From: Stigmatella aurantiaca DW4/3-1
GTDB lineage: Bacteria > Myxococcota > Myxococcia > Myxococcales > Myxococcaceae
Assembly (NCBI RefSeq): GCF_000165485.1
Contig: NC_014623.1
Coordinates: 4,914,893-4,978,892, forward strand
Length of the DNA stretch: 64,000 nucleotides
Direction: 5' to 3'
Of this stretch, positions 3,517 through 64,000 are shown one piece after another; position 1 is the first letter of the stretch, and every line of letters begins with the position of its first letter. Below the pieces are notes generated by a model. The model worked only from the letters and a program-made list of their open reading frames with translations, did no database searches and was not told the DNA's origin. The position numbers were made by a program, and so were the translations under genes.

Positions 3517-4176
3517 TTATCGCTTTCCTTCGTTCGCCGACGCGCCGAGCATCGCCTTCGCGTAGGTCACCCCGGCCCCGTACGTTCCCGCGTGCTGCTT
3601 CACGATGGCGTTCACCGGGTCATAGGTCTCCTGGCGCGCCCAATCCCGCTGCATCTCCAGGAGGAACTGGAGCCAGGTGATGGGCGTGCCGCCCGCCTGG
3701 GCCACCCGCTGAATCGCCAGATCGTGGGCGACCTGGCTCGTGCCGCCGCAGGCGTCCGCGACGACGTAGACCTCGAAGCCCTCGCGGAGCGCGTCGAGCG
3801 CGGGGAACGCGATGCAGACCTCTGTCCAGAGCCCGGCGAGCACGACCTTCTTGCGGCCGGTCTTCTTGACGGCGTCGACGACCCGCTTGTCCTCCCAGGT
3901 GTTCATCGTGGTCCGGTCGATGATCGGCTCCTGGGGGAAGACCTCGGTGATCTGGCTGAAGGTGGGGCCGCTGAAGGTCTTCTCCGCCACCGAGGTCAGG
4001 ATGGTCGGGACCTTGAAGACCTTCGCGGCCTTCGCCAGGCCCGTGACGTTGTTCACGAGCAGCTGCCCATCGATGGATTTCACGCCGAAGGCCATCTGCG
4101 GCTGGAAGTCGATCAGCACGAGGACGCAGTTGCTGGGATCCAGCAGGGCGGGGACATTGCGAGGGGTGAGGCTCAT
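3517..4176 (-). CDS. Isochorismatase-family cysteine hydrolase
   Basis: 219 aa. 'CVLVLIDFQ...' start and the conserved layout of isochorismatase/YcaC-like hydrolases. 4-nt spacing to the amidohydrolase gene suggests an operon. Confidence 0.8.
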   Translation of the reverse strand: MSLTPRNVPALLDPSNCVLVLIDFQPQMAFGVKSIDGQLLVNNVTGLAKAAKVFKVPTILTSVAEKTFSGPTFSQITEVFPQEPIIDRTTMNTWEDKRVVDAVKKTGRKKVVLAGLWTEVCIAFPALDALREGFEVYVVADACGGTSQVAHDLAIQRVAQAGGTPITWLQFLLEMQRDWARQETYDPVNAIVKQHAGTYGAGVTYAKAMLGASANEGKR

Positions 4177-53692: not shown

Positions 53693-53831
53693 GGTGAGCG
53701 GACTCTCCACTGGACGTCTTAAGAAATCCTTACGTGTCCTGTCCCTCTGCACGTCCGGCGCACTTCCGGACAGAGGCCGCGGTGGAATTCCCGCGTGGCT
53801 TGCTCCACCATTGCCCTGGGAGGTGAGGGAC

Positions 53832-54602
53832 ATGGGAGAGATGTCGCAGAAGTGTGCGGTGGTGACGGGAGCGGCCAACGGAATCGGGCTTGCGGTGGCG
53901 CAGGCGCTGAGCGCTCAGGGGGCCCGGGTGTTGATGGCGGATCTGGACGAGGAGCGTGGCCAGGCGGCGGCCCGTGAACTGCCAAACGCGCTCTTTCAGC
54001 GCACGGACATTGCCTCACGCGAGGATTGCCGGACCCTGGTGGCTCGCGCGGAGCGGGAGTGGGGGCGGCTGGACATCCTGGTCAACAACGCTGGCCTCCA
54101 GCATGTCTCGCCCGTGGAGGACTTTCCGGAGGATCGATGGGAGCACCTCCTGCGCATCATGCTGGTCGGCCCCTTCCTGCTGACGAAGTACGCCTTGCCG
54201 ATGATGTACGCCCGGCGCTGGGGGCGCATCATCAACATGTCCTCCCTGCATGGGCTGGTGGCCTCCCCCTACAAGTCGGCCTACGTCTCGGCGAAGCACG
54301 GCTTGATGGGGCTGACGAAGACGGTCGCGCTGGAGGCGGCGGACAAGGGGGTCACGGTGAACGCGGTCTGTCCCAGCTACGTGCGGACGCCACTGGTGGA
54401 GAAGCAGATCGCGGACCAGGCGCGGGTCCATGGGCTGTCCGAGACCGAGGTCATCGAGAAGGTGATGCTGGCGCCCGCGGCGGTGAAGCGGCTGTTGGAG
54501 CCAAGTGAGGTGGCCGCCTACGTGATGTTCCTTTGCTCCGAGGCGGCCGGGGGAGTCACGGGAGGGGCGCAGGTCATCGACTGCGGATGGACCGCGCGTT
54601 AG
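53832..54602 (+). CDS. SDR-family oxidoreductase (3-hydroxybutyrate-dehydrogenase-like)
   Basis: SD GGAGG, 'MGEMSQKCAVVTGAANGIGLAVAQAL' TGxxxGIG. 'NNAG', 'YKSAYVSAKHG' YxxxK catalytic motif. Confidence 0.85.
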   Translation: MGEMSQKCAVVTGAANGIGLAVAQALSAQGARVLMADLDEERGQAAARELPNALFQRTDIASREDCRTLVARAEREWGRLDILVNNAGLQHVSPVEDFPEDRWEHLLRIMLVGPFLLTKYALPMMYARRWGRIINMSSLHGLVASPYKSAYVSAKHGLMGLTKTVALEAADKGVTVNAVCPSYVRTPLVEKQIADQARVHGLSETEVIEKVMLAPAAVKRLLEPSEVAAYVMFLCSEAAGGVTGGAQVIDCGWTAR

Positions 54603-54614
54603 CCCGCACCCGGC

Positions 54615-55862
54615 TCACGCCGCGTCCTTCCCCGGTTCATGCTCCTGGCTCGCCGGGAGGGAGTCTTCTTCCGTGAGCTGTTCCCGGAAGGTCTCCGCGG
54701 AGAGGTACACGGAGACGAGGGTGATGAGGGCCAGCCCGACCATGTAGATGGAGATGGGCCAGGATTGGCCTTGGAACCGGGCGAGCAGCGCGGTGGCGAT
54801 GATGGGAGACAGGCCGCCGGCGAAGACCGAGGCGAGCTGATAGCCGAGCGAGGCACCGCTGTACCGGACACGGGTGCCGAACAGCTCGGAGAAGAAGCTG
54901 GCCTGAGGGCCGTACATGGCCGCGTGGGCCACGATGCCCAGGGTGATGGCCATCCAGATGAGTCCGGTCTCCTTCGTGTCGAGCAACCAGAAGAAGGGGA
55001 AGGCCAGGAGTCCACACCCCAGGGCCCCGGCCAGATACACCGGGCGGCGGCCCAGGCGGTCCGAGGCGGCTCCAAACGCGGGAATGGCCACCAGGTGGAT
55101 GCTGGTGGCCACCAGCACGCCGTTGAGCAAGGTGGACCGCGGGAGCCCCAACCGCTCGGTGCCGTAGGTGAGGACGAACGTGGTGATGATGTAGAAGAAG
55201 CCGTTCTCCGCGAAGCGCGCCCCCATGGCCAGGAGGATCTGCCGGGGGTAGGTCCGCAGCGCGTCCAGCACGGGCAGCTTGGGGGCTTCCGCGTCCTTCT
55301 TCCGGTTGCGGAAAACGGGAGACTCGGACACGCTTAGGCGGATGAACACGCCGATGCCGATGAGGACGGCGCTGAGCAGGAAGGGCACGCGCCAGCCCCA
55401 CGAGAGGAACTCGGCCTCGGGCAGGCGGGAGAAATACGAAAACACGGCGGTGGCCACCAGCAGTCCCGCGGGGGCGCCGGTCTGCGGCCAGCTCCCATAA
55501 AAGCCACGCCGATTGGCGGGGGAGTGCTCCACGGCCATCAGCACCGCGCCGCCCCACTCGCCACCCAGTCCGAACCCCTGAAGCATTCTCAGGAGCACCA
55601 GGAGCGCTGGGGCCCAAGGGCCAATCGTCTCGTACGTGGGCAGCAATCCCACGAAGAACGTCGCCGCCCCCATGATCATCAGGGTGGCGCTCAGCATGGC
55701 CTTGCGGCCCAGCTTGTCGCCGAAATGGCCGAACACCACCCCTCCCAGCGGACGGGCGATGAAGCCGACGGCAAAGGTGGCGAAGGCCGCCATCGTTCCC
55801 GTGAGCGGATCAAACGACGGGAAGAACAATCGGTTGAAGACGAGCGCCGCCGCGGTGCCGTA
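54615..55862 (-). pseudogene. 3' (major) fragment of an MHS-family MFS transporter gene (KgtP/ProP/ShiA-like), separated from its 5' end by a 5.4 kb insertion
   Basis: Begins mid-motif '...YGTAAALVFNRLFFPSFDPLTGTMAAFATFAVGFIARPLGGVVFGHFGDKLGRK' and continues as a complete 12-TM body. The track ORF's upstream 200 codons are R-rich read-through of the inserted DNA. Confidence 0.75.
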
Positions 55863-55865
55863 GAG

Positions 55866-56711
55866 ATGGCAAATAGGCCTGGAGAAGCGGTGCCATGGAG
55901 GGGAGCAAGCGAGACAGGAGGCGAGAAGGCAGCCCCCAGCAGTCCGGGGGAGAGCAAGACGTCCAGTCCGGCTGACGTCTCGCCGGGTAGCGTGTCGGAC
56001 GTCCCCGAGCGGAGCCCCCGGAGCGAAGCGGAGGGGGCGCAGCGAGGCCTGAGCGAGGCGGGATGGCTCGGACTGCTTGCCGGGGTGTTCCTTGCCGTTG
56101 GTCTCGTGGCCGTGTGGGTCGCTGCCGTGGCTGTTCTCGCGGTGGTTGTGCTCGTCACCACGGCGGCGGCGCGCGTCCGCATGCTCGTGGGCTGCGCGTG
56201 GCGAGGCCCTAGGGAACTGGCAGCGCGTGTCCGTGCGCGCGTGCTGCTGGCGTGGTGGGGCCGACGATGGCCGCCCCTGCCCCAGCGGCCGAGCCTCACG
56301 CCGTGCAGGCAGTGCGGAGCAGTGCTGCCCTACGCGTGCGCCACGCCGCTGTGTGACGAGTGCTTGAGCCAGCCGACGCGGGAGGAGTTGCGGCAGGAAC
56401 TTAGGTTTGCGCGTGGCCTGCTTCAGCTCGCGCACGGCGCGGCCATGTCCTGGCGCGCGGCCATGGACCGGACGGCCAGGGCCAATCACTGGTGGCAGGA
56501 CCGCTACCGCCGCGCCGCGCTGGAACTGCGGCGCCGCAGACGCGAGGACGCGGAACCGGAGACGCGCCGCAAGCTGGACAAAGCGCGGGAGAGCCGCCGC
56601 GCGGTGCTGCGCTGGGCAGGAGCGTGGCGGCGGCTCGCGTTCGCGCAGCGCAAGAAAGCCAGGGAGACTGAGCAGACAGTCTGGAGTCTGACGGCAGAAG
56701 TCTCGCGGTAA
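55866..56711 (+). CDS. Island-borne hypothetical protein (S/P-rich N-terminus, TM segment, CxxC...CxxC zinc-ribbon, Arg-rich coiled-coil), 3'-truncated by IS66
   Basis: ATG sits 1-3 nt inside the island's left junction. 'CRQCGAVLPYACATPLCDEC'. The TAA stop is supplied by the first bases of the IS66 left inverted repeat (cgGTAAGCC). Confidence 0.5.
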   Translation: MANRPGEAVPWRGASETGGEKAAPSSPGESKTSSPADVSPGSVSDVPERSPRSEAEGAQRGLSEAGWLGLLAGVFLAVGLVAVWVAAVAVLAVVVLVTTAAARVRMLVGCAWRGPRELAARVRARVLLAWWGRRWPPLPQRPSLTPCRQCGAVLPYACATPLCDECLSQPTREELRQELRFARGLLQLAHGAAMSWRAAMDRTARANHWWQDRYRRAALELRRRRREDAEPETRRKLDKARESRRAVLRWAGAWRRLAFAQRKKARETEQTVWSLTAEVSR

Positions 56712-56789
56712 GCCTCCGCTCCGACCCAGGGTGTCGTAGGGCGAAGAGCGTGGCAGGAAGGGAGGGTGAGAGAAGGAGAGTCGACGAGC

Positions 56790-58451
56790 CTATCGCTGCT
56801 GAGCTGGTTGCTGTGCCCACGCCTCGGGGAGGAGCTCCGCGATGCGAGAGGCGGGGAAGAGGGTGTCACCGAGTTTGGGCAACACGTCGCGAAAGTAAGC
56901 CCAGGGGTCCATCTCCAGCCGATAGCAGCTGAGGACCAGGGAATAGACAGCCGCCGCGCGGTGGCCTGCGGCGTCGCTGCCCAGGAAGAGCCAGTTCTTC
57001 CTGCCGAGGACAATCAGCTTGATGAGCCGTTCGGCCTCTCCATTGTCCAGAGGCACGCGTCCATCCTCGAGGAAGCGGCCCAAGGGGACAGAGCGGTGGA
57101 GCGCATAGGCAATGGCCTTACCCAGCGGCGTTTTCGGGGGCACGTGAGGAGCCCAATCCGTCAGCAAACCGAAGAGTTCGAGACAGACCGGAGCGCTCTT
57201 CTCCAAGCGCAGCGCCAGCCGGGCTTGGCAGGACAGACTGGCTTGGGTGGCTTGGCGTTCCACGGCATACAGTTTCTGCACGAGGGCCAGCACTGTGCTG
57301 CCACGCGCGTCACCTGCCAGGTGAGCACGCTCGAAGCCACGCCGGGCGTGCATCCAACATCCCACCTCGGTGCGAGGCGAAGCGTGGCCGAAGAGCGCCT
57401 GGTAGCCTTTGTAGCCGTCCACCACGAGATAGCCCTGGAAGTTGGCCAGCACCGCCTGGGGCCCCTGGCTACTCCAATCCGGTGTGTACTCGACGAAGAG
57501 ATTGCCGCCCTGGCCGATGTAAGGCCAGAGGTGGCCGCGCTTGACGCCACGCGCGTCCTCCTTGTCCAGCACTCGCACCCCGGTGTCATCAGTATGCAGC
57601 AGGAAGTCACTGAGCGTTCGGCGCTTGAGCAGCGCCACCAGGGGCACCAGCAAGTCGCTGGCACCGGCCACCCAGTCGCCCAGGGTGGAAGGCGGCAGCT
57701 TCACCCCATACCGTTTATCGAAAATGGCCTGCTGGCGGTGCACCGGTAGGCCGTCTCGGTACTTGCCTACCAACAGCTGCGCCAGCAGGCCGGGGCCCGG
57801 CAACGCTCCTGGCAGCGGCGTCTCGCCCGCGGGGGCGGCCACCACACCCTCCTTACAGCGAGCACACGCCAGCTTGGGCCGCTTCTCCACTCGCACATAG
57901 AAGCGCGCGGGCTCCAATTCCAACCGCTGGCTGACTTCCTGGCCAATGCTCTTCCTGGGCTGACCGCATTCAGGACACGTACACTCTTCGGCAGAAGGCT
58001 CCACCTGCACCTCGCGCCGCTCCAGGTGGGCCGGCAGCGCCTTGGCGCCGCGCGCCAGGACACGCCGGGGCGGCTTCTTCGGCGCCTGCTCCGGCGGGGC
58101 GGCTGGGGCCGCCGCAGGCGCTTGCGCTCCGCTGTCGGCCTCGGGCGGGCCAGGCGGCGGCTGGGTGAGCAGTGACAGCAGCAGTTGCAGGGAACTGGCG
58201 GGGGTCTTCTCACTCCTGCGCCCGTACAGTTGCCTCAACGCCTCCTTCAGCCTCATCGCCGTGCTGGAATGCTCCTCGCGCAGCCTTCCTAAAAGGCCCA
58301 GCAACAACTCGATGGCCTCCTCACCTCGGCCCTCCTCCAGCAACTGCCGCATGTACGCACGCACCGCCTCCATGTCACTGGCTTCGCCGGGGGGCTCCGG
58401 TCTCGGCTCCGGCCCGGCCCCCTGCTCCTGGACTGTTGTGGGCCTGCTCAT
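56790..58451 (-). CDS. IS66-family transposase (TnpC)
   Basis: 553 aa with N-terminal leucine-zipper-like region and zinc finger 'CTCPECGQPRKSIGQEVSQRLELEPARFYVRVEKRPKLACARC'. DDE domain 'GHLWPYIGQ...LVVDGYKGY'. Confidence 0.85.
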   Translation of the reverse strand: MSRPTTVQEQGAGPEPRPEPPGEASDMEAVRAYMRQLLEEGRGEEAIELLLGLLGRLREEHSSTAMRLKEALRQLYGRRSEKTPASSLQLLLSLLTQPPPGPPEADSGAQAPAAAPAAPPEQAPKKPPRRVLARGAKALPAHLERREVQVEPSAEECTCPECGQPRKSIGQEVSQRLELEPARFYVRVEKRPKLACARCKEGVVAAPAGETPLPGALPGPGLLAQLLVGKYRDGLPVHRQQAIFDKRYGVKLPPSTLGDWVAGASDLLVPLVALLKRRTLSDFLLHTDDTGVRVLDKEDARGVKRGHLWPYIGQGGNLFVEYTPDWSSQGPQAVLANFQGYLVVDGYKGYQALFGHASPRTEVGCWMHARRGFERAHLAGDARGSTVLALVQKLYAVERQATQASLSCQARLALRLEKSAPVCLELFGLLTDWAPHVPPKTPLGKAIAYALHRSVPLGRFLEDGRVPLDNGEAERLIKLIVLGRKNWLFLGSDAAGHRAAAVYSLVLSCYRLEMDPWAYFRDVLPKLGDTLFPASRIAELLPEAWAQQPAQQR

Positions 58452-58495
58452 GCCCCAGGTATGCTACGTCCCAGGTAGGGTGCGCAACTGAAGAC

Positions 58496-58840
58496 TCAAT
58501 GCACCGGCCTCTGGCGCACCCCGCTGCCTGTCTCTACCAGGGCCAGCACTTCGGCCAGTTGCCTCGCCTCCAGGTGCACCGCTCCCTGGCCTTCTACCGG
58601 CTCAGGCACCCGGAAGCGTCCTGCCTCCAGTCTCTTGCTCACCGTGCAATATCCATTCGTCTCCCAGAACAGAATCCTCACGAAATCTCTCCTTCGCGAG
58701 AAGAAGACAAACAGGTGGCCAGACTTCGGCGCCTGGCCCAAGCTTCCCTCCACCAGTGCGCTCAACCCGTCGGCCTGCTTTCTCATGTCGCACGGCGCCG
58801 TCGCCACCCAGATTTTCACCCCCTCCGGCAGTCTCAGCAT
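58496..58840 (-). CDS. IS66 Orf2 (TnpB) accessory protein
   Basis: 'MLRLPEGVKIWVATAPCDMRKQADGLSALVEGSLGQAPKSGHLFVFFSRRRDFVRILFWETNGYCTVSKRLEAG' is the diagnostic IS66 TnpB. Confidence 0.85.
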   Translation of the reverse strand: MLRLPEGVKIWVATAPCDMRKQADGLSALVEGSLGQAPKSGHLFVFFSRRRDFVRILFWETNGYCTVSKRLEAGRFRVPEPVEGQGAVHLEARQLAEVLALVETGSGVRQRPVH

Positions 58841-59229
58841 CCTTGCACCCGCTGGAGAGCTCTCAGCACCCGCTCCACCAACTCCTGGCTGGCTCCCCCC
58901 TCCACCCTCACCCTCACTCCCTTCACTTCCACCACTACCGCCTCCCCAACTCCCTGCCTCCTTTGACTCGGTGCCTCCGGCGTCACCTCCACCGGCACGA
59001 AGCCCATTGCAGGTTTCTCTTTCTGCTCCCACTCTGCGCGCCTCCTCGACCAGAATCGCAGCCTCTCTCGGGGCAGCCCGTGCTTGCGCATGAACGCGCT
59101 CTGCGCTCCTCCTTCCTTCTGCCAGGCTCGTACCACCTCGGCTGCTATTTCCGGCGTCCACCTCGGTTGTCGGGCCGCTGCCAACCACCCTGGCTCTTCT
59201 GTCTTTGTCGTCTCTGCGCTGGTCGTCAT
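58834..59229 (-). CDS. IS66 Orf1 (TnpA, HTH)
   Basis: 131 aa '...WTPEIAAEVVRAWQKEGGAQSAFMRKHGLPRERLRFWSRRR...' is IS3/IS66-type HTH_Tnp_1. Overlaps tnpB start. Confidence 0.8.
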   Translation of the reverse strand: MTTSAETTKTEEPGWLAAARQPRWTPEIAAEVVRAWQKEGGAQSAFMRKHGLPRERLRFWSRRRAEWEQKEKPAMGFVPVEVTPEAPSQRRQGVGEAVVVEVKGVRVRVEGGASQELVERVLRALQRVQGC

Positions 59230-59290
59230 CGTCCGCTCACTCTGGCGACTCTCTCCCTTCTGCGCGACATGGGCGGGAGCGGAGGCTTAC

Positions 59291-59428
59291 GCTGCCTCGT
59301 ACGCCGCACCGGACGCCTTCGAGACCGCGCGCCAGCAAGCTCACGCCACCTGCGCGGAACTGGTGCGCAAGCACCTGCCGTGGAAACTGGTCGAGGCTGC
59401 GTTGACGACGCGTGGGGGGGCCTCATGA
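59291..59428 (+). pseudogene. 3' remnant of the IS66-interrupted island gene
   Basis: In-frame open segment '(AA)SYAAPDAFETARQQAHATCAELVRKHLPWKLVEAALTTRGGAS*' begins right at the IS66 right end. Its stop overlaps the next ATG (ATGA). Confidence 0.45.
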
Positions 59429-59832
59429 CTCCCGCCTTCTGTCGCCTGTGCGGCAAGCCGCTGGAGACGATGGAGGCGCGGCATCGCGGCGTCCACTTCG
59501 AATGCCCCGACGACGAAGCCGCACCGGAGAAGCCGGGCGAGGCGCGGCTGCTCAACGCCCCCGCCACCTGGGTCTGCTTGCCTCTCTTTCGCGCGGTGGC
59601 TCAGGCGCGGCTGGCGGCGTCGCATCTGGCCCAAACGGTGACGCACCTGGAGCGGGCGCGGGCGTTCCTCGCCCAGGTGCAGGGCGAGCACGTGCCGGAC
59701 GTCTCTAGCGCGCGCCTCGCGTTCAGTGCGCACGCGCTGGATGCGGCGGTGTTGCGCGTGAGCCTGGAGGAGATGGCGCAAGGTCTGGAGACGGAAGCCG
59801 AGACCACGGCCGGGAAGGCAGGCCGCCCATGA
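59425..59832 (+). CDS. Small zinc-ribbon protein (135 aa)
   Basis: 'MTPAFCRLCGKPLETMEARHRGVHFECPDD'. Translationally coupled on both sides (ATGA overlaps at 59425 and 59829). Confidence 0.55.
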   Translation: MTPAFCRLCGKPLETMEARHRGVHFECPDDEAAPEKPGEARLLNAPATWVCLPLFRAVAQARLAASHLAQTVTHLERARAFLAQVQGEHVPDVSSARLAFSAHALDAAVLRVSLEEMAQGLETEAETTAGKAGRP

Positions 59833-61316
59833 ACCTCCATCTCCACGAGCGAGCCGCGCGGCGTGCGGACCTGGAACGGCAGGCGCACGCGGAGCGTGTG
59901 GAACGCCAGAAACGGAAGGAAGCCGAAAAGAGAGACGCAGGCGGTGCCGCTCATCGAGCGCGCCGAGGAGCCGAGCGGCGAGAGCCGCTGTGCGCTGACG
60001 CCGTGCGAGCGCCGCCAGCCGGGCCCGTGGCCCGGTGCCTGCACAGTGCGGTTCGCCAACACCGAGGACGCCAGCAGCAGCGCACGCAACGAGACCTGGA
60101 GCGCACGATGACGCGGAAGACGAAGGCGAAGCCAAAGCCGAGAAAGGGGGACCCGAGACAGGAGGAGCTGCCAATCACGGAGACGCCCACCCTTGAGGCT
60201 CTCTTTGAGTGGTACGAGAAAGAGCGGCTCTGCCACCAGAAGCGCAATACGCGAGACGCCTACAAGACGAGCTTCCGTGCAGCGCTCAAGCGGTTTGGAA
60301 AGCATGGGAAGCCGTCGAAAGGGCAAGTGCAGGGCTGGCTGTCGGAGAGGGTTCGGAAGGCGGAAATTCTACCGTCAACAGCGAACGTTGTTCGCGCTCA
60401 CCTCCACCGCGTCTATGCACTGGCCCGGGATCTTCGGTGGCCGCTGCTCCTCAATGTCGCGGCCTTCCCGTGCTTCCCTGACGTGCCGAAAAAGCCAGAG
60501 GGGCTTAGGGATACCTACCGCACGTGGCCAATGCTCCTTGCCTGCATGCCCGACGCGCGTGCGCGTGCGTTTCTGTCGTTCCAGAGGTGGGAGGGTCTTC
60601 GGGTGTCTGAAGTCTTGGGGCTGGAGTGGAAGCACGTGAAGTGGGATGCGGAGGGCGGGCCTCAAGTTATTGTGGAGCAGCAGCGGAGCGCACGCCGCAC
60701 GGTTCCGGGGACGCTGAAGAACGATGCGGCCCCTGCCGCGTTCCCCCTGTCGGACGAGACGGTACGCCTGTTGCGCGAGCTGCGGCGTGATTTCATGGCC
60801 GCGCGGCCCATGCTCGGGGCGGTGCGCTCGGGATTGGCTGGGCGCCGTCCCTGCCGAGATGGTGCGGTGCGCAGCTACGTGTTCCCGTACTTCATGGCCC
60901 ACGTGCTCATCATCGGGCGCCGTCTCGGCCTGACTGCGCCAGAAGAGTTCCCGGAGGGTATTCGCGGACTGCGCGCACCGAAGCGCTTCCACCGGCTGCG
61001 CCACACGTTCGGCACGGAGACCGTAAACACGGTCGGGGTGGAGGTGGCCAAGGGGCTGCTGAGGCACAAGTTCATCAACACCACCGTCCTCTATGCGGAC
61101 GCGGTGCGTGGAAGGGTGCTCGACAAGGACGCGCTCAAGAAAGTGCGGCGGGAGGCTCAGGCCCGCCAAGCGCAGGCAGTGGAGGAGGCCTCCGGGGCTA
61201 TTTCCTTGAGCGGAAAGGCAAATGGGACCGGAGGGGTATCAGAGGCAGTGAAACCGCGTAGTTACGGCGAGGGGTATTCAGGAAGAAGTCGTACCACTCG
61301 ATGGCGGTTCCAATGA
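59829..61316 (+). CDS. Tyrosine-type site-specific recombinase (phage-integrase family)
   Basis: Catalytic-domain motifs '...LRVSEVLGLEW...HRLRHTFGTE...LLRHKFINTTVLYADAV' (R...HxxR...Y). Arg-rich N-terminal extension. Alternative start MTRKTKAK at 60108. Last about 12 codons read into the flanking MHS gene antisense. Confidence 0.8.
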   Translation: MNLHLHERAARRADLERQAHAERVERQKRKEAEKRDAGGAAHRARRGAERREPLCADAVRAPPAGPVARCLHSAVRQHRGRQQQRTQRDLERTMTRKTKAKPKPRKGDPRQEELPITETPTLEALFEWYEKERLCHQKRNTRDAYKTSFRAALKRFGKHGKPSKGQVQGWLSERVRKAEILPSTANVVRAHLHRVYALARDLRWPLLLNVAAFPCFPDVPKKPEGLRDTYRTWPMLLACMPDARARAFLSFQRWEGLRVSEVLGLEWKHVKWDAEGGPQVIVEQQRSARRTVPGTLKNDAAPAAFPLSDETVRLLRELRRDFMAARPMLGAVRSGLAGRRPCRDGAVRSYVFPYFMAHVLIIGRRLGLTAPEEFPEGIRGLRAPKRFHRLRHTFGTETVNTVGVEVAKGLLRHKFINTTVLYADAVRGRVLDKDALKKVRREAQARQAQAVEEASGAISLSGKANGTGGVSEAVKPRSYGEGYSGRSRTTRWRFQ

Positions 61317-61383
61317 AGCTGGCCACGGCCACCTTTAGGATGGAATTCCGTGAGTCCGGAGGGGACGCTGCGTCGCTGCTCAT
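61279..61383 (-). pseudogene. 5' fragment of the MHS transporter gene
   Basis: 'MSSDAASPPDSRNSILKVAVASFIGTAIEWYDFFL' is the canonical MHS N-terminus (AIEWYDFF). It stops being transporter-like exactly after FFL, where the continuation ...YGTAAALVF is found at 55862. Confidence 0.7.
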
Positions 61384-61407: not shown

Positions 61408-62805
61408 TCAGCTCCAAGGGATGCGGCACATTGCCTGAGTTCCCGTGCGTCTGTCATGGATGGCTTGGTAGATTCGGGACATCCAGAAGTTCGTGCGCCG
61501 GTGGTCTTCCAGCTCGGAGCCGCTGGGGTGCCCCTGGAGGAACGCCTCCAGCAGCGCCAGGCGGGCCTGTTCGTTGTGTCCGGCGGGCTGGGCCGCCTTG
61601 CCAAACTCGAGCTTCTCGAAGTGGGGGCCCCCGACGGCATCCGAGTTGCGAAACACATAGACGTCGAAGTGGTCCAGATGTCCCGGTCCGTAGGCGGGCT
61701 GCACGCGATGATCCCGCGTCTCGTAGGACTGGTAGGAGTGGACTTGCAGGTTGAGCAGCGGCCCCACCTGAAGGTTCATGCGCTCATGCCGGACGCGCCC
61801 GGCCCCTTTGTAGGGATCCGAAGGGGGGGCGGGAGAGGCGCGGCGCGAGAAGGAGTTCTGGAGCAGCTGAAGGGAGACCAGGGTCTGGACGGTCTCGCCC
61901 GTGAGGATCCGTCCCATGAGGGTGAGGTCCATCTCTCCGTGAGTCTCGACGGGGACCGGCGTGGGAACCTGCTCCGGGCCGAACAGCCGCTCGTAACGCC
62001 CCTCCAGGAGGGCGAGGAAGTCCTTTGGCTCGAAGGTCTGCACCTGGAATTCCAGCTGACGGGCGGCGGGTTTCGCGCGCTGGTTGCTCTCCAGCAGCCA
62101 GGAGCACAGGTCCACGAAGTGGTACCCCGAGTGCAACAGCTTGCCCGTGCGGTGCTTGTAAGCGTGGTGCTCGCGGTCCCACTCATCCGGCATCACCCAC
62201 ATGCCGTCGGCGTGGTAGAGGTCCAGGAAGGAGACGGGCACCCCATACTCCTGGAGGAAGTCGTCGAGGTAGCGCTTGATGAAGCCATAGCCTGCGTGCA
62301 TGCGGCGTTGGGCTTGCACCACCAGGCGGGCGCGTGAGGCGGCGAGCGCCTGGGCGATCTCCTCGAAGTCCTTCCAGAGCGCTTGGGCAACATCCTCGGT
62401 GCTGGCGGCATGGGCCGGGGCGGTGATGGGCTTGTCGAGCAGGATGTGAACACCGCTTTGGAGTGCCCACATCACGTAGCGTTTGTGAGCGCGCGGTTCG
62501 GTGGAAATGATCACGCCATCCAGCAGCCCGGCGGCGCGCAGCTTGGTGAGGTGCGTGAGAAGTTCCTCTGGCAAGGCGTCCGAGTCGAGGCTGGGCTCGG
62601 TGAAGAGGAGCTGGGTGGGTGCCACTCGCCGCTGGGCGAGGTAGCCGCGCACGGCGTCGCTGTGGGTGTGCAGATCCACGACCGCGCTGATGCGGATGCG
62701 GCCTTGGAGCGCGGCCTCCTCGAGCCAGGGGTAATAGACGCGGCGGGCATGCCATCCGAGGCCGATGAGCACGACGTGGCGGATGGGCTCTTGAAGAGAG
62801 CTCAC
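61408..62805 (-). CDS. Gfo/Idh/MocA-family NAD(P)-dependent oxidoreductase
   Basis: 'RHVVLIGLGWHARRVYYPWL' Rossmann N-terminus, 465 aa. ATGA overlap with the upstream gene. Confidence 0.8.
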   Translation of the reverse strand: MSSLQEPIRHVVLIGLGWHARRVYYPWLEEAALQGRIRISAVVDLHTHSDAVRGYLAQRRVAPTQLLFTEPSLDSDALPEELLTHLTKLRAAGLLDGVIISTEPRAHKRYVMWALQSGVHILLDKPITAPAHAASTEDVAQALWKDFEEIAQALAASRARLVVQAQRRMHAGYGFIKRYLDDFLQEYGVPVSFLDLYHADGMWVMPDEWDREHHAYKHRTGKLLHSGYHFVDLCSWLLESNQRAKPAARQLEFQVQTFEPKDFLALLEGRYERLFGPEQVPTPVPVETHGEMDLTLMGRILTGETVQTLVSLQLLQNSFSRRASPAPPSDPYKGAGRVRHERMNLQVGPLLNLQVHSYQSYETRDHRVQPAYGPGHLDHFDVYVFRNSDAVGGPHFEKLEFGKAAQPAGHNEQARLALLEAFLQGHPSGSELEDHRRTNFWMSRIYQAIHDRRTGTQAMCRIPWS

Positions 62806-64000
62806 ACGAGGAACCTTCGGAGGCCGGCGAAGAAGCTCAGGCGGTCAGGGTCCAGGTGTTCGCCGCAGCAGGCTCCGAGGAACGCTTCCGCCCACCGCTC
62901 CCCCAGGTTGTGCTGCACGGACCAGTGGGCCAGGGCGAGATCCCAGTACCGGTCTCCGCTGCCCACGCCCGAGAGATCCAGGCATCCCGTGAACGCCCCG
63001 TGAGAATCCACCCGGAAGTTGGGCAAGCACGGATCTCCATGGAGCAGCACGCGCGGCCCCTCGGCGAGGGCCTGTGCGGCACGTTCGAGGCGGTCGAGTT
63101 CCCGGGCAAGCGCCTCGGGACCTTCCAGGGGCGGGCCGTACTTGGCGGTGAAGTTGCGAGAGGGGACCTCGCCCCGGTTCAAGCGCTCCCGGGCTCGCCG
63201 CAGCAGCACCGGGATGGCGTAATCGGTCATGCCTCCTGGGGGCGGTGCCCTGTGGAATGTTCGCAATGCCTCGGCCAGGTTGTGCACGAGCCTTGCCCGT
63301 TCTGGGTCATGGGTGCACGCCTGTGCGGCCTGCTTGGCGGAAGTTCCTGAGAGTTCCTCGGTGAGGAGGGCCTGCACGTCTTCTCCAAGCGTGAAGAGGC
63401 CCCGGAGCACGGGGACCTGAAGCGCCAGTTGCCGCGCGCTCTCGGAGGAGAGGAAGGTGGCCTCGGCTTTCAGGGGGGCTCCCCAGGGCGGGGCCAGCTT
63501 GAGGTAGAGGGCCGCTCCGGAAGGGGGCTGGTAGCGGAACACCAGCGAGTCCAGGTGGGACGAATGGTTCACCCCATCCGTGGAGGCGTCCCTCAGGAGC
63601 TCGGCCAGGGGGGCGGGGAACAGGGGCGTGGCTTCCTCGAGGAGCCGTCGAGAGAGTGAATGGAGGATGGCCCGCGTCACCGCTTCGGGCGAACCGCTGC
63701 CATCCACTTCCACGGCGACGCCTCGTTTGGCGTAGTGCTCCAGGAGCGGATGCGTGTCCTGCTCCCAGTCCACCATGCGGGCCTTCACGGACTCAGGGGC
63801 ATCCTCGGGGCGCCGGGTGACGGCGCTCTCGGAACCGGGAGGCACATGCCGTGAGTGGAACGGCTGTCCCGTGGCGGGATCCAGGGTGCGGCCCTGCAAG
63901 CGCTCCGCCCGTGTGGCGTCGTCCACCTTCAGGTGCACGGCGGCCAGCACCTCCCAGCGGTTCCCCTCGAGGAAGTTGGACTGGGACCGCATCCGGGGAA
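62802..64000 (-). CDS. Kinase fusion: adenylate/nucleoside-monophosphate-kinase-like C-terminal portion + APH/choline-kinase-like phosphotransferase domain (5' end beyond window)
   Basis: N-part '...VDDATRAERLQGR...RPEDAPESVKARMVDWEQDTHPLLEHYAKRGVAVEVDGSGSPEAV' resembles the adenylate-kinase LID/C-terminal region. C-part 'VLLHGDPCLPNF...GCLDLSGVGSGDRYWDLA' is the APH-family HGD...N / D.G..D motif. Confidence 0.6.
   Translation of the reverse strand, partial: PRMRSQSNFLEGNRWEVLAAVHLKVDDATRAERLQGRTLDPATGQPFHSRHVPPGSESAVTRRPEDAPESVKARMVDWEQDTHPLLEHYAKRGVAVEVDGSGSPEAVTRAILHSLSRRLLEEATPLFPAPLAELLRDASTDGVNHSSHLDSLVFRYQPPSGAALYLKLAPPWGAPLKAEATFLSSESARQLALQVPVLRGLFTLGEDVQALLTEELSGTSAKQAAQACTHDPERARLVHNLAEALRTFHRAPPPGGMTDYAIPVLLRRARERLNRGEVPSRNFTAKYGPPLEGPEALARELDRLERAAQALAEGPRVLLHGDPCLPNFRVDSHGAFTGCLDLSGVGSGDRYWDLALAHWSVQHNLGERWAEAFLGACCGEHLDPDRLSFFAGLRRFLV

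What the first reader, a model, noticed from the sequence alone, without database searches (positions are those of the whole stretch)
55863..61278. About 5.4 kb tyrosine-recombinase island inserted inside an MHS-family transporter gene
The MHS transporter N-terminus (…AIEWYDFFL) lies at 61383-61279 and the rest of the same protein (YGTAAALVFNRLFFP… to the C-terminus) at 55862-54615, both on the minus strand. The intervening 5.4 kb carries a hypothetical zinc-ribbon/TM protein, a small zinc-ribbon protein and a tyrosine recombinase. The last two junctions are ATGA-coupled. The recombinase ORF terminates inside the flanking transporter sequence. Only a 2-3 bp shared core (…AG) is visible at the junctions. 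The island's first gene starts within 3 nt of the left junction. This looks like a compact integrative or transposon-like element that has inactivated the last gene of a kinase-oxidoreductase-transporter operon.
Basis: partly seen in the sequence, partly recalled or inferred. Interest (0 to 1): 0.7.

Follow-up and report, generated by a model that had tools for sequence, protein, structure and literature searches.

The report
Decayed prophage remnant splitting a transporter gene
A metabolite transporter gene of Stigmatella aurantiaca is split by the two leftover ends of a roughly 25 kb virus-like integrating element, whose middle has been replaced by an IS66 insertion sequence; this is ordinary mobile-DNA decay, although the integrase belongs to a rare, unstudied group that inserts inside genes.

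Summary
The split gene is real. Window 61383-61279 plus 55862-54615 (minus strand) join into a 450-aa MHS transporter. The joined protein passes the TIGR00883 cut-off, and the gene is contiguous in related myxobacteria. The insert is 55863-61278 (5416 bp) with no target duplication.

I walked a Stigmatella erecta contig and found a ~24.7 kb phage-like relative that splits a Ser/Thr kinase gene. It carries a packaging-ATPase homologue, two DNA methylases and a GH19 endolysin, with the integrase at its right end.
- Its left end matches window 55929-56397 (73% nt).
- Its right end matches window 59291-61278.

So the island is the left 845 bp plus the right 1988 bp of such an element. About 22 kb was lost at the IS66. 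One accessory gene is frameshifted and the integrase stop codon is lost.

The integrase is a two-domain tyrosine recombinase with no arm-binding domain and an intact catalytic set. It has only 153 relatives among 1.84 billion cluster representatives. Five relatives abut truncated host genes.

Verdict: a real but ordinary decayed integrative element, and a new member of a known kind.

The parts
61279..61383 (-). N-terminal fragment (35 codons) of the interrupted MHS transporter gene, ending ...AIEWYDFFL
54615..55862 (-). C-terminal part of the same MHS gene (YGTAAALVF... to the stop)
55863..61278 (+). Inserted DNA (5416 bp). The junction position is ambiguous by 3 nt because GAG (55863-55865) and CAG (61279-61281) both fit the Leu codon of the empty site.
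55866..56711 (+). Truncated first gene of the element (TM segment, CxxC...CxxC zinc ribbon, Arg-rich helix). It is 52% identical over aa 16-178 to the first gene (343 aa) of the S. erecta element. Its stop codon TAA lies inside the IS66 inverted repeat.
56708..59290 (-). IS66-family insertion sequence (2583 bp). Inverted repeats at 56708-56728 and 59270-59290 (GTAAGCCTCCGCTCC...). tnpA 59229-58834, tnpB 58843-58496, tnpC 58451-56790. The flanking 8-mers GTCTCGCG and GCTGCCTC differ, so there is no target duplication.
59291..59428 (+). Last 45 codons of the '216-aa' accessory gene of the integrase module. Homology to relatives (…AASF.TPEAFE…) starts at the first base after the IS66.
59425..59832 (+). 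135-aa accessory gene: N-terminal Cys/His zinc-ribbon-like motif plus a long helical hairpin. Homologues were found only next to this integrase subgroup (three other proteins in 5.8 billion clusters).
59829..60111 (+). Small accessory gene (95 aa, 288 nt, ATGA-coupled at both ends in relatives). Here it is 283 nt from ATG to TGA, so it is frameshifted. It contains a ~70-nt block (about 59974-60040) that is nearly invariant in four elements.
60108..61316 (+). Tyrosine recombinase (402 aa = P0001). Catalytic R165, K204, H295, R298, H320, Y329. Two domains (core-binding and catalytic) with no arm-binding domain. The last 12 codons are encoded by antisense MHS sequence.
61245..61279 (+). Conserved right-terminal segment GCAGTGAAACCGCGTAGTTACGGCGAGGGGTATTC. 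It is shared by six elements, and similarity stops at the junction with four different host genes.

Best explanation
The island is the remnant of a temperate, phage-like integrative element of about 25 kb.

Shown:
- The element sits inside the MHS transporter gene between the Leu and Tyr codons of the conserved EWYDFFL|YGTAA motif. There is no duplication and no loss of target bases.
- Only the outer 845 bp on the left and 1988 bp on the right of the element survive.
- These two pieces are joined through an IS66-family element that lacks the family's usual 8-bp target duplication.
- Homology to intact relatives breaks off exactly at both IS66 ends.

Inferred:
- The element entered by conservative site-specific recombination between its joined ends (attP) and the target, catalysed by its own arm-less tyrosine recombinase. 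The site shares only 2-3 bp of strict identity and patchy flanking similarity with attP.
- An IS66 then inserted into the prophage. An IS-associated deletion, either intramolecular transposition or recombination between two IS copies, removed the ~22 kb interior.
- Further decay followed. The 95-aa accessory gene acquired a net 5-nt deficit. The integrase stop codon TAG became TAC, so the ORF now ends in the flank.
- The integrase itself still looks functional, and attL and attR are intact, so residual excision cannot be excluded.
- The MHS gene is inactive while the insert is present.
For: Gene split and empty site:
- establish the split and the contiguous gene in relatives.

Nested IS66 without duplication:
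- Searches identify the element. The flanking 8-mers were read.

Intact relative in Stigmatella erecta (contig FOIJ01000023.1):
- It lies between the N-lobe (Pfam Pkinase positions 8-126) and the C-lobe (positions 133-258) of one kinase gene.
- Joined, the two halves give Pkinase 8-258 at 96.7 bits.
- The distance between the junctions is about 24.7 kb.
- It carries a GH19 endolysin, two DNA methyltransferases, a phrog_2666 packaging-ATPase homologue and an HTH_3 protein.

Both ends of the window island match that element:
- Left: window 55929-56397 matches L094 1273-1753 at 73% nt (E 3e-67). The first ORF is 52% identical to the relative's first gene (E 3e-43).
- Right: window 59291-61278 matches the relatives' [216][135][95][int] module, starting at the first base after the IS66.

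The interior moves with the integrase:
- L001 sits in an Exo_endo_phos gene and L082 in the kinase gene. They share 4.3 kb at 80% nt upstream of integrases that are only about half identical in protein: each is 70% and 47-48% identical to the window integrase.

Decay marks:
-.

Recombinase properties:
- Catalytic residues are invariant across 21 family members.
- The AlphaFold model has mean pLDDT 82.9. The best PDB matches are Tn1549 Int (CB+CAT) and lambda Int 75-356.
Against: - No excision product, circular form or second copy was seen. The window holds only one copy of each part.
- The order of events is not determined: deletion in place, or transposition of an already deleted derivative.
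- The strict identity shared by attL and attR is only [G/C]AG. Similarity between the junction regions is not above shuffled controls (11% of shuffles reach it). The exact crossover and the overlap region are therefore undefined.
- Absence of an IS66 target duplication is indirect evidence for a deletion. Other copies of this IS could not be retrieved to check its usual behaviour.
- The 'phage-like' label for relatives rests on an endolysin, methylases and a packaging-ATPase homologue. No capsid, portal or tail gene was recognised.
Confidence: 0.85

Rival explanations
1. One reading: a compact (~2.8 kb) autonomous element of the type [gene 1][zinc-ribbon gene][tyrosine recombinase] inserted into the MHS gene and was later hit by a simple IS66 insertion.
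For: - The genes are co-directional and ATGA-coupled.
- Removing the IS66 plus 8 bp puts the two halves of 'gene 1' in frame.
- One metagenome contig (L084) shows short integrase modules in tandem.
Against: - The IS66 has no 8-bp duplication.
- The 5' and 3' halves of 'gene 1' match two different genes, the 343-aa first gene and the 216-aa fourth-from-last gene, of one 24.7 kb element in S. erecta.
- The in-frame joining has a one-in-three chance expectation.
- The L084 modules include a degenerate integrase and look like debris.
Confidence: 0.07
2. The remnant is still an active, reversible switch. The integrase excises the 5.4 kb precisely under some condition, for example development, and so restores the MHS gene, as gene-interrupting prophages do in other bacteria.
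For: - attL and attR are intact.
- The integrase catalytic residues are intact.
- The insertion is precise, so excision would restore the ORF.
- Five relatives also sit inside ORFs.
Against: - There is no evidence of excision.
- The accessory gene next to int is frameshifted.
- The 216-aa gene is truncated, and the IS66 and the deletion point to neutral decay.
- Nothing is known about a directionality factor.
Confidence: 0.06
3. The insertion was produced by IS66 activity rather than by the tyrosine recombinase. On this view the IS carried flanking prophage DNA into the MHS gene.
For: An apparently complete IS66 lies inside the insert.
Against: - The junctions with the MHS gene are the prophage's own termini.
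- The right terminal 35 nt is conserved in six elements, and similarity ends exactly at the host junction.
- The left segment corresponds to the left end of the S. erecta element.
- No IS66 inverted repeat and no 8-bp duplication occurs at the MHS junctions.
Confidence: 0.02

Closest known systems
Temperate-phage or integrative-element integration by a tyrosine integrase (lambda-type site-specific recombination)
   Same: - The integrase gene lies next to one attachment site.
- Insertion is conservative, with no target duplication.
- The catalytic set R-K-H-R-H-Y is present, with the CB+CAT fold.
- The relatives' cargo is phage-like.
   Different: - There is no arm-binding domain. Only about 25 disordered residues precede the core-binding domain.
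- Targets are the interiors of protein-coding genes, not tRNA genes or gene 3' ends that the element restores.
- Strict identity between the att sites is very short in the window.
Myxophage Mx8 integrase (attP inside int; integration gives int a new 3' end; PMC6070905)
   Same: - The host is a myxobacterium.
- In the integrated state the window's int ORF ends in host DNA.
   Different: - tblastn of the integrase finds no match in 50,697 phage records.
- In relatives int stops 16-45 nt inside the element, so the read-through in the window is a TAG-to-TAC change.
- The target is not a tRNA gene.
Tn916/Tn1549 and CTnDOT integrases, which tolerate non-identical overlap ('coupling') sequences (PMC2817482, PMC8138268)
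   Same: - Tn1549 Int is the best structural match (Foldseek E 3e-09, TM-score about 0.55-0.69 depending on normalisation).
- The junctions show no duplication. They share one dinucleotide (AG) followed by unrelated bases, as with the conserved GC plus 5-bp coupling sequence of CTnDOT.
   Different: - There is no arm-binding domain, and sequence identity is only 18-19%.
- Relatives have no conjugation genes; the cargo is phage-like.
- Heterology tolerance is inferred from one junction pair, not shown.
Gene-interrupting prophages and 'phage regulatory switches', such as the Listeria comK prophage and the Bacillus skin and SPbeta elements (from my own knowledge, not checked here)
   Same: The element sits inside an ORF, and precise excision would restore the gene.
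   Different: No excision evidence exists. The window copy has lost about 22 kb and carries an IS.
IS66 family insertion sequences
   Same: - tnpA, tnpB and tnpC are present above NCBIfam or Pfam cut-offs.
- The inverted repeats begin GTAAGC.
   Different: There is no 8-bp target duplication, which I read as the scar of a deletion.

Membership tests
Tyrosine recombinase superfamily (Pfam PF00589) | Catalytic Arg-Lys-His-Arg-His/Trp set plus the Tyr nucleophile | tested here: met
   R165, K204, H295, R298 and Y329 are invariant, and H320 nearly so, in 21 family members. PF00589 scores 39.1 bits against a cut-off of 27.1.
Tyrosine recombinase superfamily (Pfam PF00589) | Core-binding plus catalytic two-domain fold | tested here: met
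   The AlphaFold model has mean pLDDT 82.9. Foldseek matches Tn1549 Int 82-397, lambda Int 75-356, XerA and Cre.
'Simple' tyrosine recombinases (CB+CAT only; PMC8138268) | No N-terminal arm-binding domain | tested here: met
   The first helix starts at residue 29 and residues 1-21 have low confidence. The PDB profile match to Tn1549 Int covers query 25-315 against the arm-less construct.
'Simple' tyrosine recombinases (CB+CAT only; PMC8138268) | Placement in one of the 14 named subgroups (Xer, Rit, IntBrujita, IntKX and others) | not tested
   The subgroup HMMs are not available here. NCBIfam Xer models score 18-29 bits against cut-offs of 220-335 bits, so it is not a Xer.
Mx8-type myxophage integrase | Sequence similarity to Mx8 or Mx9 Int | tested here: not met
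   No tblastn match at E <= 1e-3 in the phage collection.
Mx8-type myxophage integrase | attP lies within the int coding sequence | tested here: not met
   Relatives stop (TAG) 16-45 nt before the element end. Only the window copy reads through.
Tn916/CTnDOT-type heterology-tolerant integrases | Arm-binding domain and a conjugative or mobilisable element context | tested here: not met
   No arm-binding domain. Relatives carry an endolysin, methylases and a packaging-ATPase homologue, and no conjugation genes were seen.
Tn916/CTnDOT-type heterology-tolerant integrases | Recombination between sites with non-identical overlap regions | tested here: inconclusive
   The window junctions share only [G/C]AG. 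The S. erecta junctions share an imperfect ~30-bp repeat, 20 of 31 identical by my count with one indel. Cleavage positions are unknown.
IS66 family | TnpC DDE transposase, TnpB and TnpA | tested here: met
   NF033517 scores 353.8 (cut-off 180). NF033819 scores 97.8 (cut-off 50). NF047593 scores 38.2 (cut-off 28).
IS66 family | Terminal inverted repeats starting GTAA | tested here: met
   21-nt arms, 90% complementary, at 56708-56728 and 59270-59290.
IS66 family | 8-bp target-site duplication | tested here: not met
   The flanks are GTCTCGCG and GCTGCCTC.
MHS (metabolite:H+ symporter) family, TIGR00883 | Full-length match above the curated cut-off | tested here: met
   The joined 450-aa protein scores 451.4 bits (cut-off 443.45) over profile positions 1-400 of 400.
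Temperate phage (prophage) | Virion structural and packaging genes | tested here: inconclusive
   Relatives have a phrog_2666 packaging-ATPase homologue and an endolysin, but no recognised capsid, portal or tail gene. None of this remains in the window.
Gene-interrupting regulatory prophage ('phage regulatory switch') | Regulated precise excision that restores the host gene | not testable with these tools
   This needs PCR or sequencing of S. aurantiaca cultures.

The most novel reading that the evidence does not exclude
The rare integrase clade may mark an undescribed group of ~25 kb myxobacterial temperate virus-like elements. These have a small FtsK/HerA-type packaging ATPase and no recognisable tailed-phage genes. 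They would use an arm-less tyrosine recombinase to integrate inside protein-coding genes (MHS transporter, Ser/Thr kinase, Exo_endo_phos and beta-lactamase-family genes) at sites that share only patchy homology with attP. The window remnant, with both att sites and an apparently intact integrase, could then still excise and reversibly switch the transporter gene.
Probability: 0.2. Interest if true: 0.5.

Novelty: new member of a known kind. Interest (0 to 1): 0.3.

Why it matters
For the window itself, the result corrects the annotation.
- The MHS transporter is a pseudogene split by mobile DNA.
- The annotated 'hypothetical protein' (P0152) is a truncated prophage gene that ends inside an IS.
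- The annotated integrase carries a 12-residue tail of antisense transporter sequence.

More broadly, the integrase belongs to a very small clade: 153 hits at E <= 1e-3 among 1.84 billion cluster representatives, and none in the phage or IMG/VR collections. Its members were repeatedly found at the edge of truncated host genes. That makes the clade a candidate for studying how an arm-less tyrosine recombinase selects targets inside coding sequence, and possibly a source of new integration tools for myxobacteria. This is of moderate interest to mobile-element specialists only.

Tried and rejected
- **Terminal repeats or a shared core between attL and attR.** The best direct match is 14 of 17 (GGCAAAT.GG.C.GGAG). 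It is reached by 11% of shuffles, and the inverted match by 58%. Rejected as evidence.
- **Inverted repeat between the element's right terminus and the host flank, as a core-site signature.** Tested in six loci. The fraction of shuffles reaching the observed match was 0.04 to 0.64, so it is not significant overall.
- **Mx8-like design with attP inside int.** Rejected.
- **tRNA target or a known RNA family in or near the island.** None found.
- **Other copies of the island or the IS66 in the window.** None.
- **IMG/VR scan.** It found only two distant relatives at 24-28% identity.
- **JGI metagenome scan.** It found nothing.
- **Exact-sequence look-ups of the window's integrase and its IS66 transposase.** Nothing was on record.
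- **Function of the accessory proteins.** Pfam, NCBIfam and PHROGs gave no hits above cut-offs. The model of the 135-aa protein (mean pLDDT 72.8) shows only a small N-terminal ribbon plus a helical hairpin, and I did not search it further.
- **Conserved ~70-nt block inside the small ORF.** Its predicted hairpins have no covariation support, because the block is nearly invariant.
- **The left segment as an orphan.** My first homology search found it to be an orphan. That result was overturned once the S. erecta left end was reached. The word-index search had missed a 52%-identical homologue.
Full report
**1. The observation**

The window is high-GC DNA from Stigmatella aurantiaca. The integrase is 100% identical to an NCBI protein of that species on a 10.26 Mb contig.

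The minus-strand ORF fragments at 61383-61279 and 55862-54615 join into a 450-aa protein without gain or loss of a base. The joined protein matches TIGR00883 (metabolite/H+ symporter) over the whole profile at 451.4 bits, above the 443.45 cut-off. It also matches Pfam MFS_1 and Sugar_tr.

A scan of one genome per species found the gene contiguous in:
- an Archangiaceae MAG (86% identity),
- Myxococcus eversor (84%),
- Archangium gephyra (78-79%),
- Cystobacter fuscus (78%).

In 73 of 80 related loci the junction reads EWYDFFLYGTA. The DNA there is ...GACTTCTTCCT(C/G) TACGG....

The insert is therefore 55863-61278, 5416 bp, with no target duplication. GAG follows the left junction and CAG the right one, and the Leu codon is CTC or CTG in relatives. 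The crossover point is therefore ambiguous by 3 nt.

**2.

Almost half of the insert is an IS66-family element at 56708-59290, found as follows:
- 21-nt inverted repeats beginning GTAAGCC;
- tnpA, tnpB and tnpC on the minus strand, all above curated cut-offs.

Its flanking 8-mers are GTCTCGCG and GCTGCCTC, so the family's usual 8-bp duplication is absent.

The plus-strand ORF that starts at 55866 ends at a TAA inside the IS repeat. The reading frame that resumes at 59291 runs 45 codons to an ATGA overlap with the next gene.

**3. Relatives of the right part**

The word-index search found only one other integrase, at 70% identity on a soil-type metagenome contig, L001. The exhaustive HMMER search found 153 proteins at E <= 1e-3 among 1.84 billion cluster representatives, 23 of them below 1e-30. 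For a tyrosine recombinase this is a very small family.

Window 59309-61279 aligns with L001 3426-5395 at 68% nt. Three loci carry the same translationally coupled module [~222 aa][~216 aa][~135 aa][~95 aa][integrase]: L001, Stigmatella erecta (L082/L091) and L089.

The window retains:
- only the last 45 codons of the 216-aa gene, with homology beginning at the first base after the IS66;
- an intact 135-aa gene;
- a 95-aa gene that measures 283 nt instead of 288 from ATG to TGA, so it is frameshifted;
- the integrase.

The GC3 frame signal agrees with the frame change.

In relatives the integrase stops at a TAG 16-45 nt inside the element. In the window that codon is TAC. The ORF therefore continues for 18 codons, 12 of them in antisense MHS sequence.

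**4. The right terminus**

Six elements share a ~35-nt terminal segment (GCAGTnAAAnCGCGTAGTTA...GAGnGnnAT.C). Their integrases are 34-70% identical to the window's. Similarity ends at the same column.

Beyond that column lie four different host genes, and all the relatives' copies are truncated:

| Locus | Host gene at the right junction | Pfam coverage |
|---|---|---|
| Window | MHS transporter | two fragments joining into a complete gene |
| L001 | Exo_endo_phos | positions 1-70 of 225 |
| L082 | Ser/Thr kinase, C-lobe | Pkinase positions 133-258 of 263 |
| L089 | Ser/Thr kinase, C-lobe | Pkinase positions 139-258 of 263 |
| L084 | Homologue of the L082 kinase fragment | not run; assigned by tblastn and DNA alignment |
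| L086 | Beta-lactamase family | positions 1-308 of 329 |

Insertion inside ORFs is therefore a repeated feature of the family.

**5. The intact relative and the decisive test**

L001 and L082 sit in different host genes. They nevertheless share 4.3 kb at 80% nt upstream of the integrase. That block therefore belongs to the mobile unit.

I converted locus proteins to protein ids and walked the S. erecta contig FOIJ01000023.1 to its start.
- The element is bounded on the left by the N-lobe of the same kinase gene (Pkinase 8-126).
- Joining the two halves gives a continuous kinase domain, positions 8-258 at 96.7 bits, with an HRDTKGDN catalytic loop.
- The two junctions lie about 24.7 kb apart.
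- They share an imperfect ~30-bp direct repeat.

The element encodes an HTH_3 protein, two DNA methyltransferases, a serine recombinase, a phrog_2666 packaging-ATPase homologue and a GH19 endolysin. A more distant relative, L086, has the same ATPase and endolysin.

The prediction that the window's left 845 bp is the left end of such an element was then met.
- Window 55929-56397 matches L094 1273-1753 at 73% nt (E 3e-67).
- Window 56491-56539 matches L094 2024-2072 at 88%.
- The window's first ORF is 52% identical (E 3e-43) to the element's first gene, a 343-aa protein with a TM segment, a zinc ribbon and a coiled coil.

**6. Interpretation**

Three facts point to an IS66-associated deletion of about 22 kb:
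- both ends of one element type are present;
- homology breaks exactly at the two IS ends;
- the IS has no target duplication.

This may have happened by intramolecular transposition or by recombination between two IS copies. Whether it happened in place or before integration cannot be told.

The original insertion is best explained by conservative recombination catalysed by the element's integrase. That protein has the full catalytic set and a two-domain fold without an arm-binding domain. Its nearest solved structures are Tn1549 Int and lambda Int.

Only [G/C]AG is strictly shared by the window's junctions, and similarity between the junction regions is not above shuffled controls. This resembles integrases that tolerate heterologous overlap regions (PMC2817482). 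It could equally reflect a rare secondary-site event, and the cleavage positions are unknown.

**7. Comparison with known systems**

- It is not an Mx8-type integrase. No phage record matches, and relatives end int inside the element, unlike Mx8, where attP lies within int (PMC6070905).
- It is not a Xer.
- It fits the 'simple' CB+CAT class, which is uncommon among phage and ICE integrases. PMC8138268 counts 27 phages with simple recombinases against 410 with arm-binding ones.

**8. Verdict**

It is wrong about the element's nature.

This is a decayed prophage-like remnant carrying an IS66, which is ordinary genome decay. The integrase clade is rare and uncharacterised, and it repeatedly sits inside ORFs, which gives the finding modest specialist interest.

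Noticed in passing
window 59974-60040 (also L001 ~4104-4170 and the aligned stretches of L082:7847-7967 and L089:5585-5705): A ~70-nt block inside the small 95-aa gene, 60-130 nt upstream of int, is nearly invariant in four elements whose flanking coding DNA is only 50-70% conserved. It contains two perfect hairpins, AGCGGC-GAGA-GCCGCT and (G)GGCC-n-GGCC(C). It could be a binding site or an RNA element. No Rfam match and no covariation.
   Followed up: partly
L084 1029-3984: A 4.3 kb metagenome contig carries three tandem integrase genes of this family. One is a degenerate 192-aa remnant. They are followed by a homologue of the L082 kinase C-terminal fragment, which suggests repeated use and decay at one attachment site.
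   Followed up: partly
L001 118-4334 versus L082 3863-8117: The region upstream of int is 80% identical in DNA. The integrases themselves are only about half identical in protein (70% and 47-48% to the window integrase), and the two elements sit in different host genes. This looks like exchange of the integrase and attachment module between otherwise similar elements.
   Followed up: partly
L094 11671-12453; L086 2378-3046: The intact relatives encode a small (222-260 aa) ATPase that matches only the P-loop part of phrog_2666 ('terminase large subunit'). No portal, capsid or tail genes were recognised. These may be tailless virus-like elements, but their nature is unresolved.
   Followed up: partly
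L094 9444-10190; L086 336-1207: Both larger relatives also carry a serine recombinase (Pfam Resolvase) on the opposite strand. In L086 it lies next to an HTH_17 gene. Its role is unknown.
   Followed up: no
cluster of L093 270-839: HTH_3 proteins in the same 90%-identity cluster as the S. erecta element's HTH_3 protein occur on two contigs of another S. aurantiaca assembly. Full-length relatives of this element probably exist in that species.
   Followed up: no
window 61408-63992: The APH-like kinase gene (with a weak, sub-threshold adenylate-kinase-like N-terminus) and the GFO/IDH/MocA oxidoreductase gene overlap by 4 nt and lie upstream of the MHS gene. Neither was found within 6 kb of the MHS orthologue in six related loci. 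The convergent SDR gene (53820-54602) keeps that position in two of them: Myxococcus eversor and an uncultured deltaproteobacterial MAG.
   Followed up: partly
window 55851-55864 and 55886-55899: GCGGTGCCGTAGAG spans the left junction and GCGGTGCCATGGAG lies 35 nt inside the element, an imperfect 14-nt direct repeat (12 of 14). I did not test it against chance, and its meaning is unknown.
   Followed up: no
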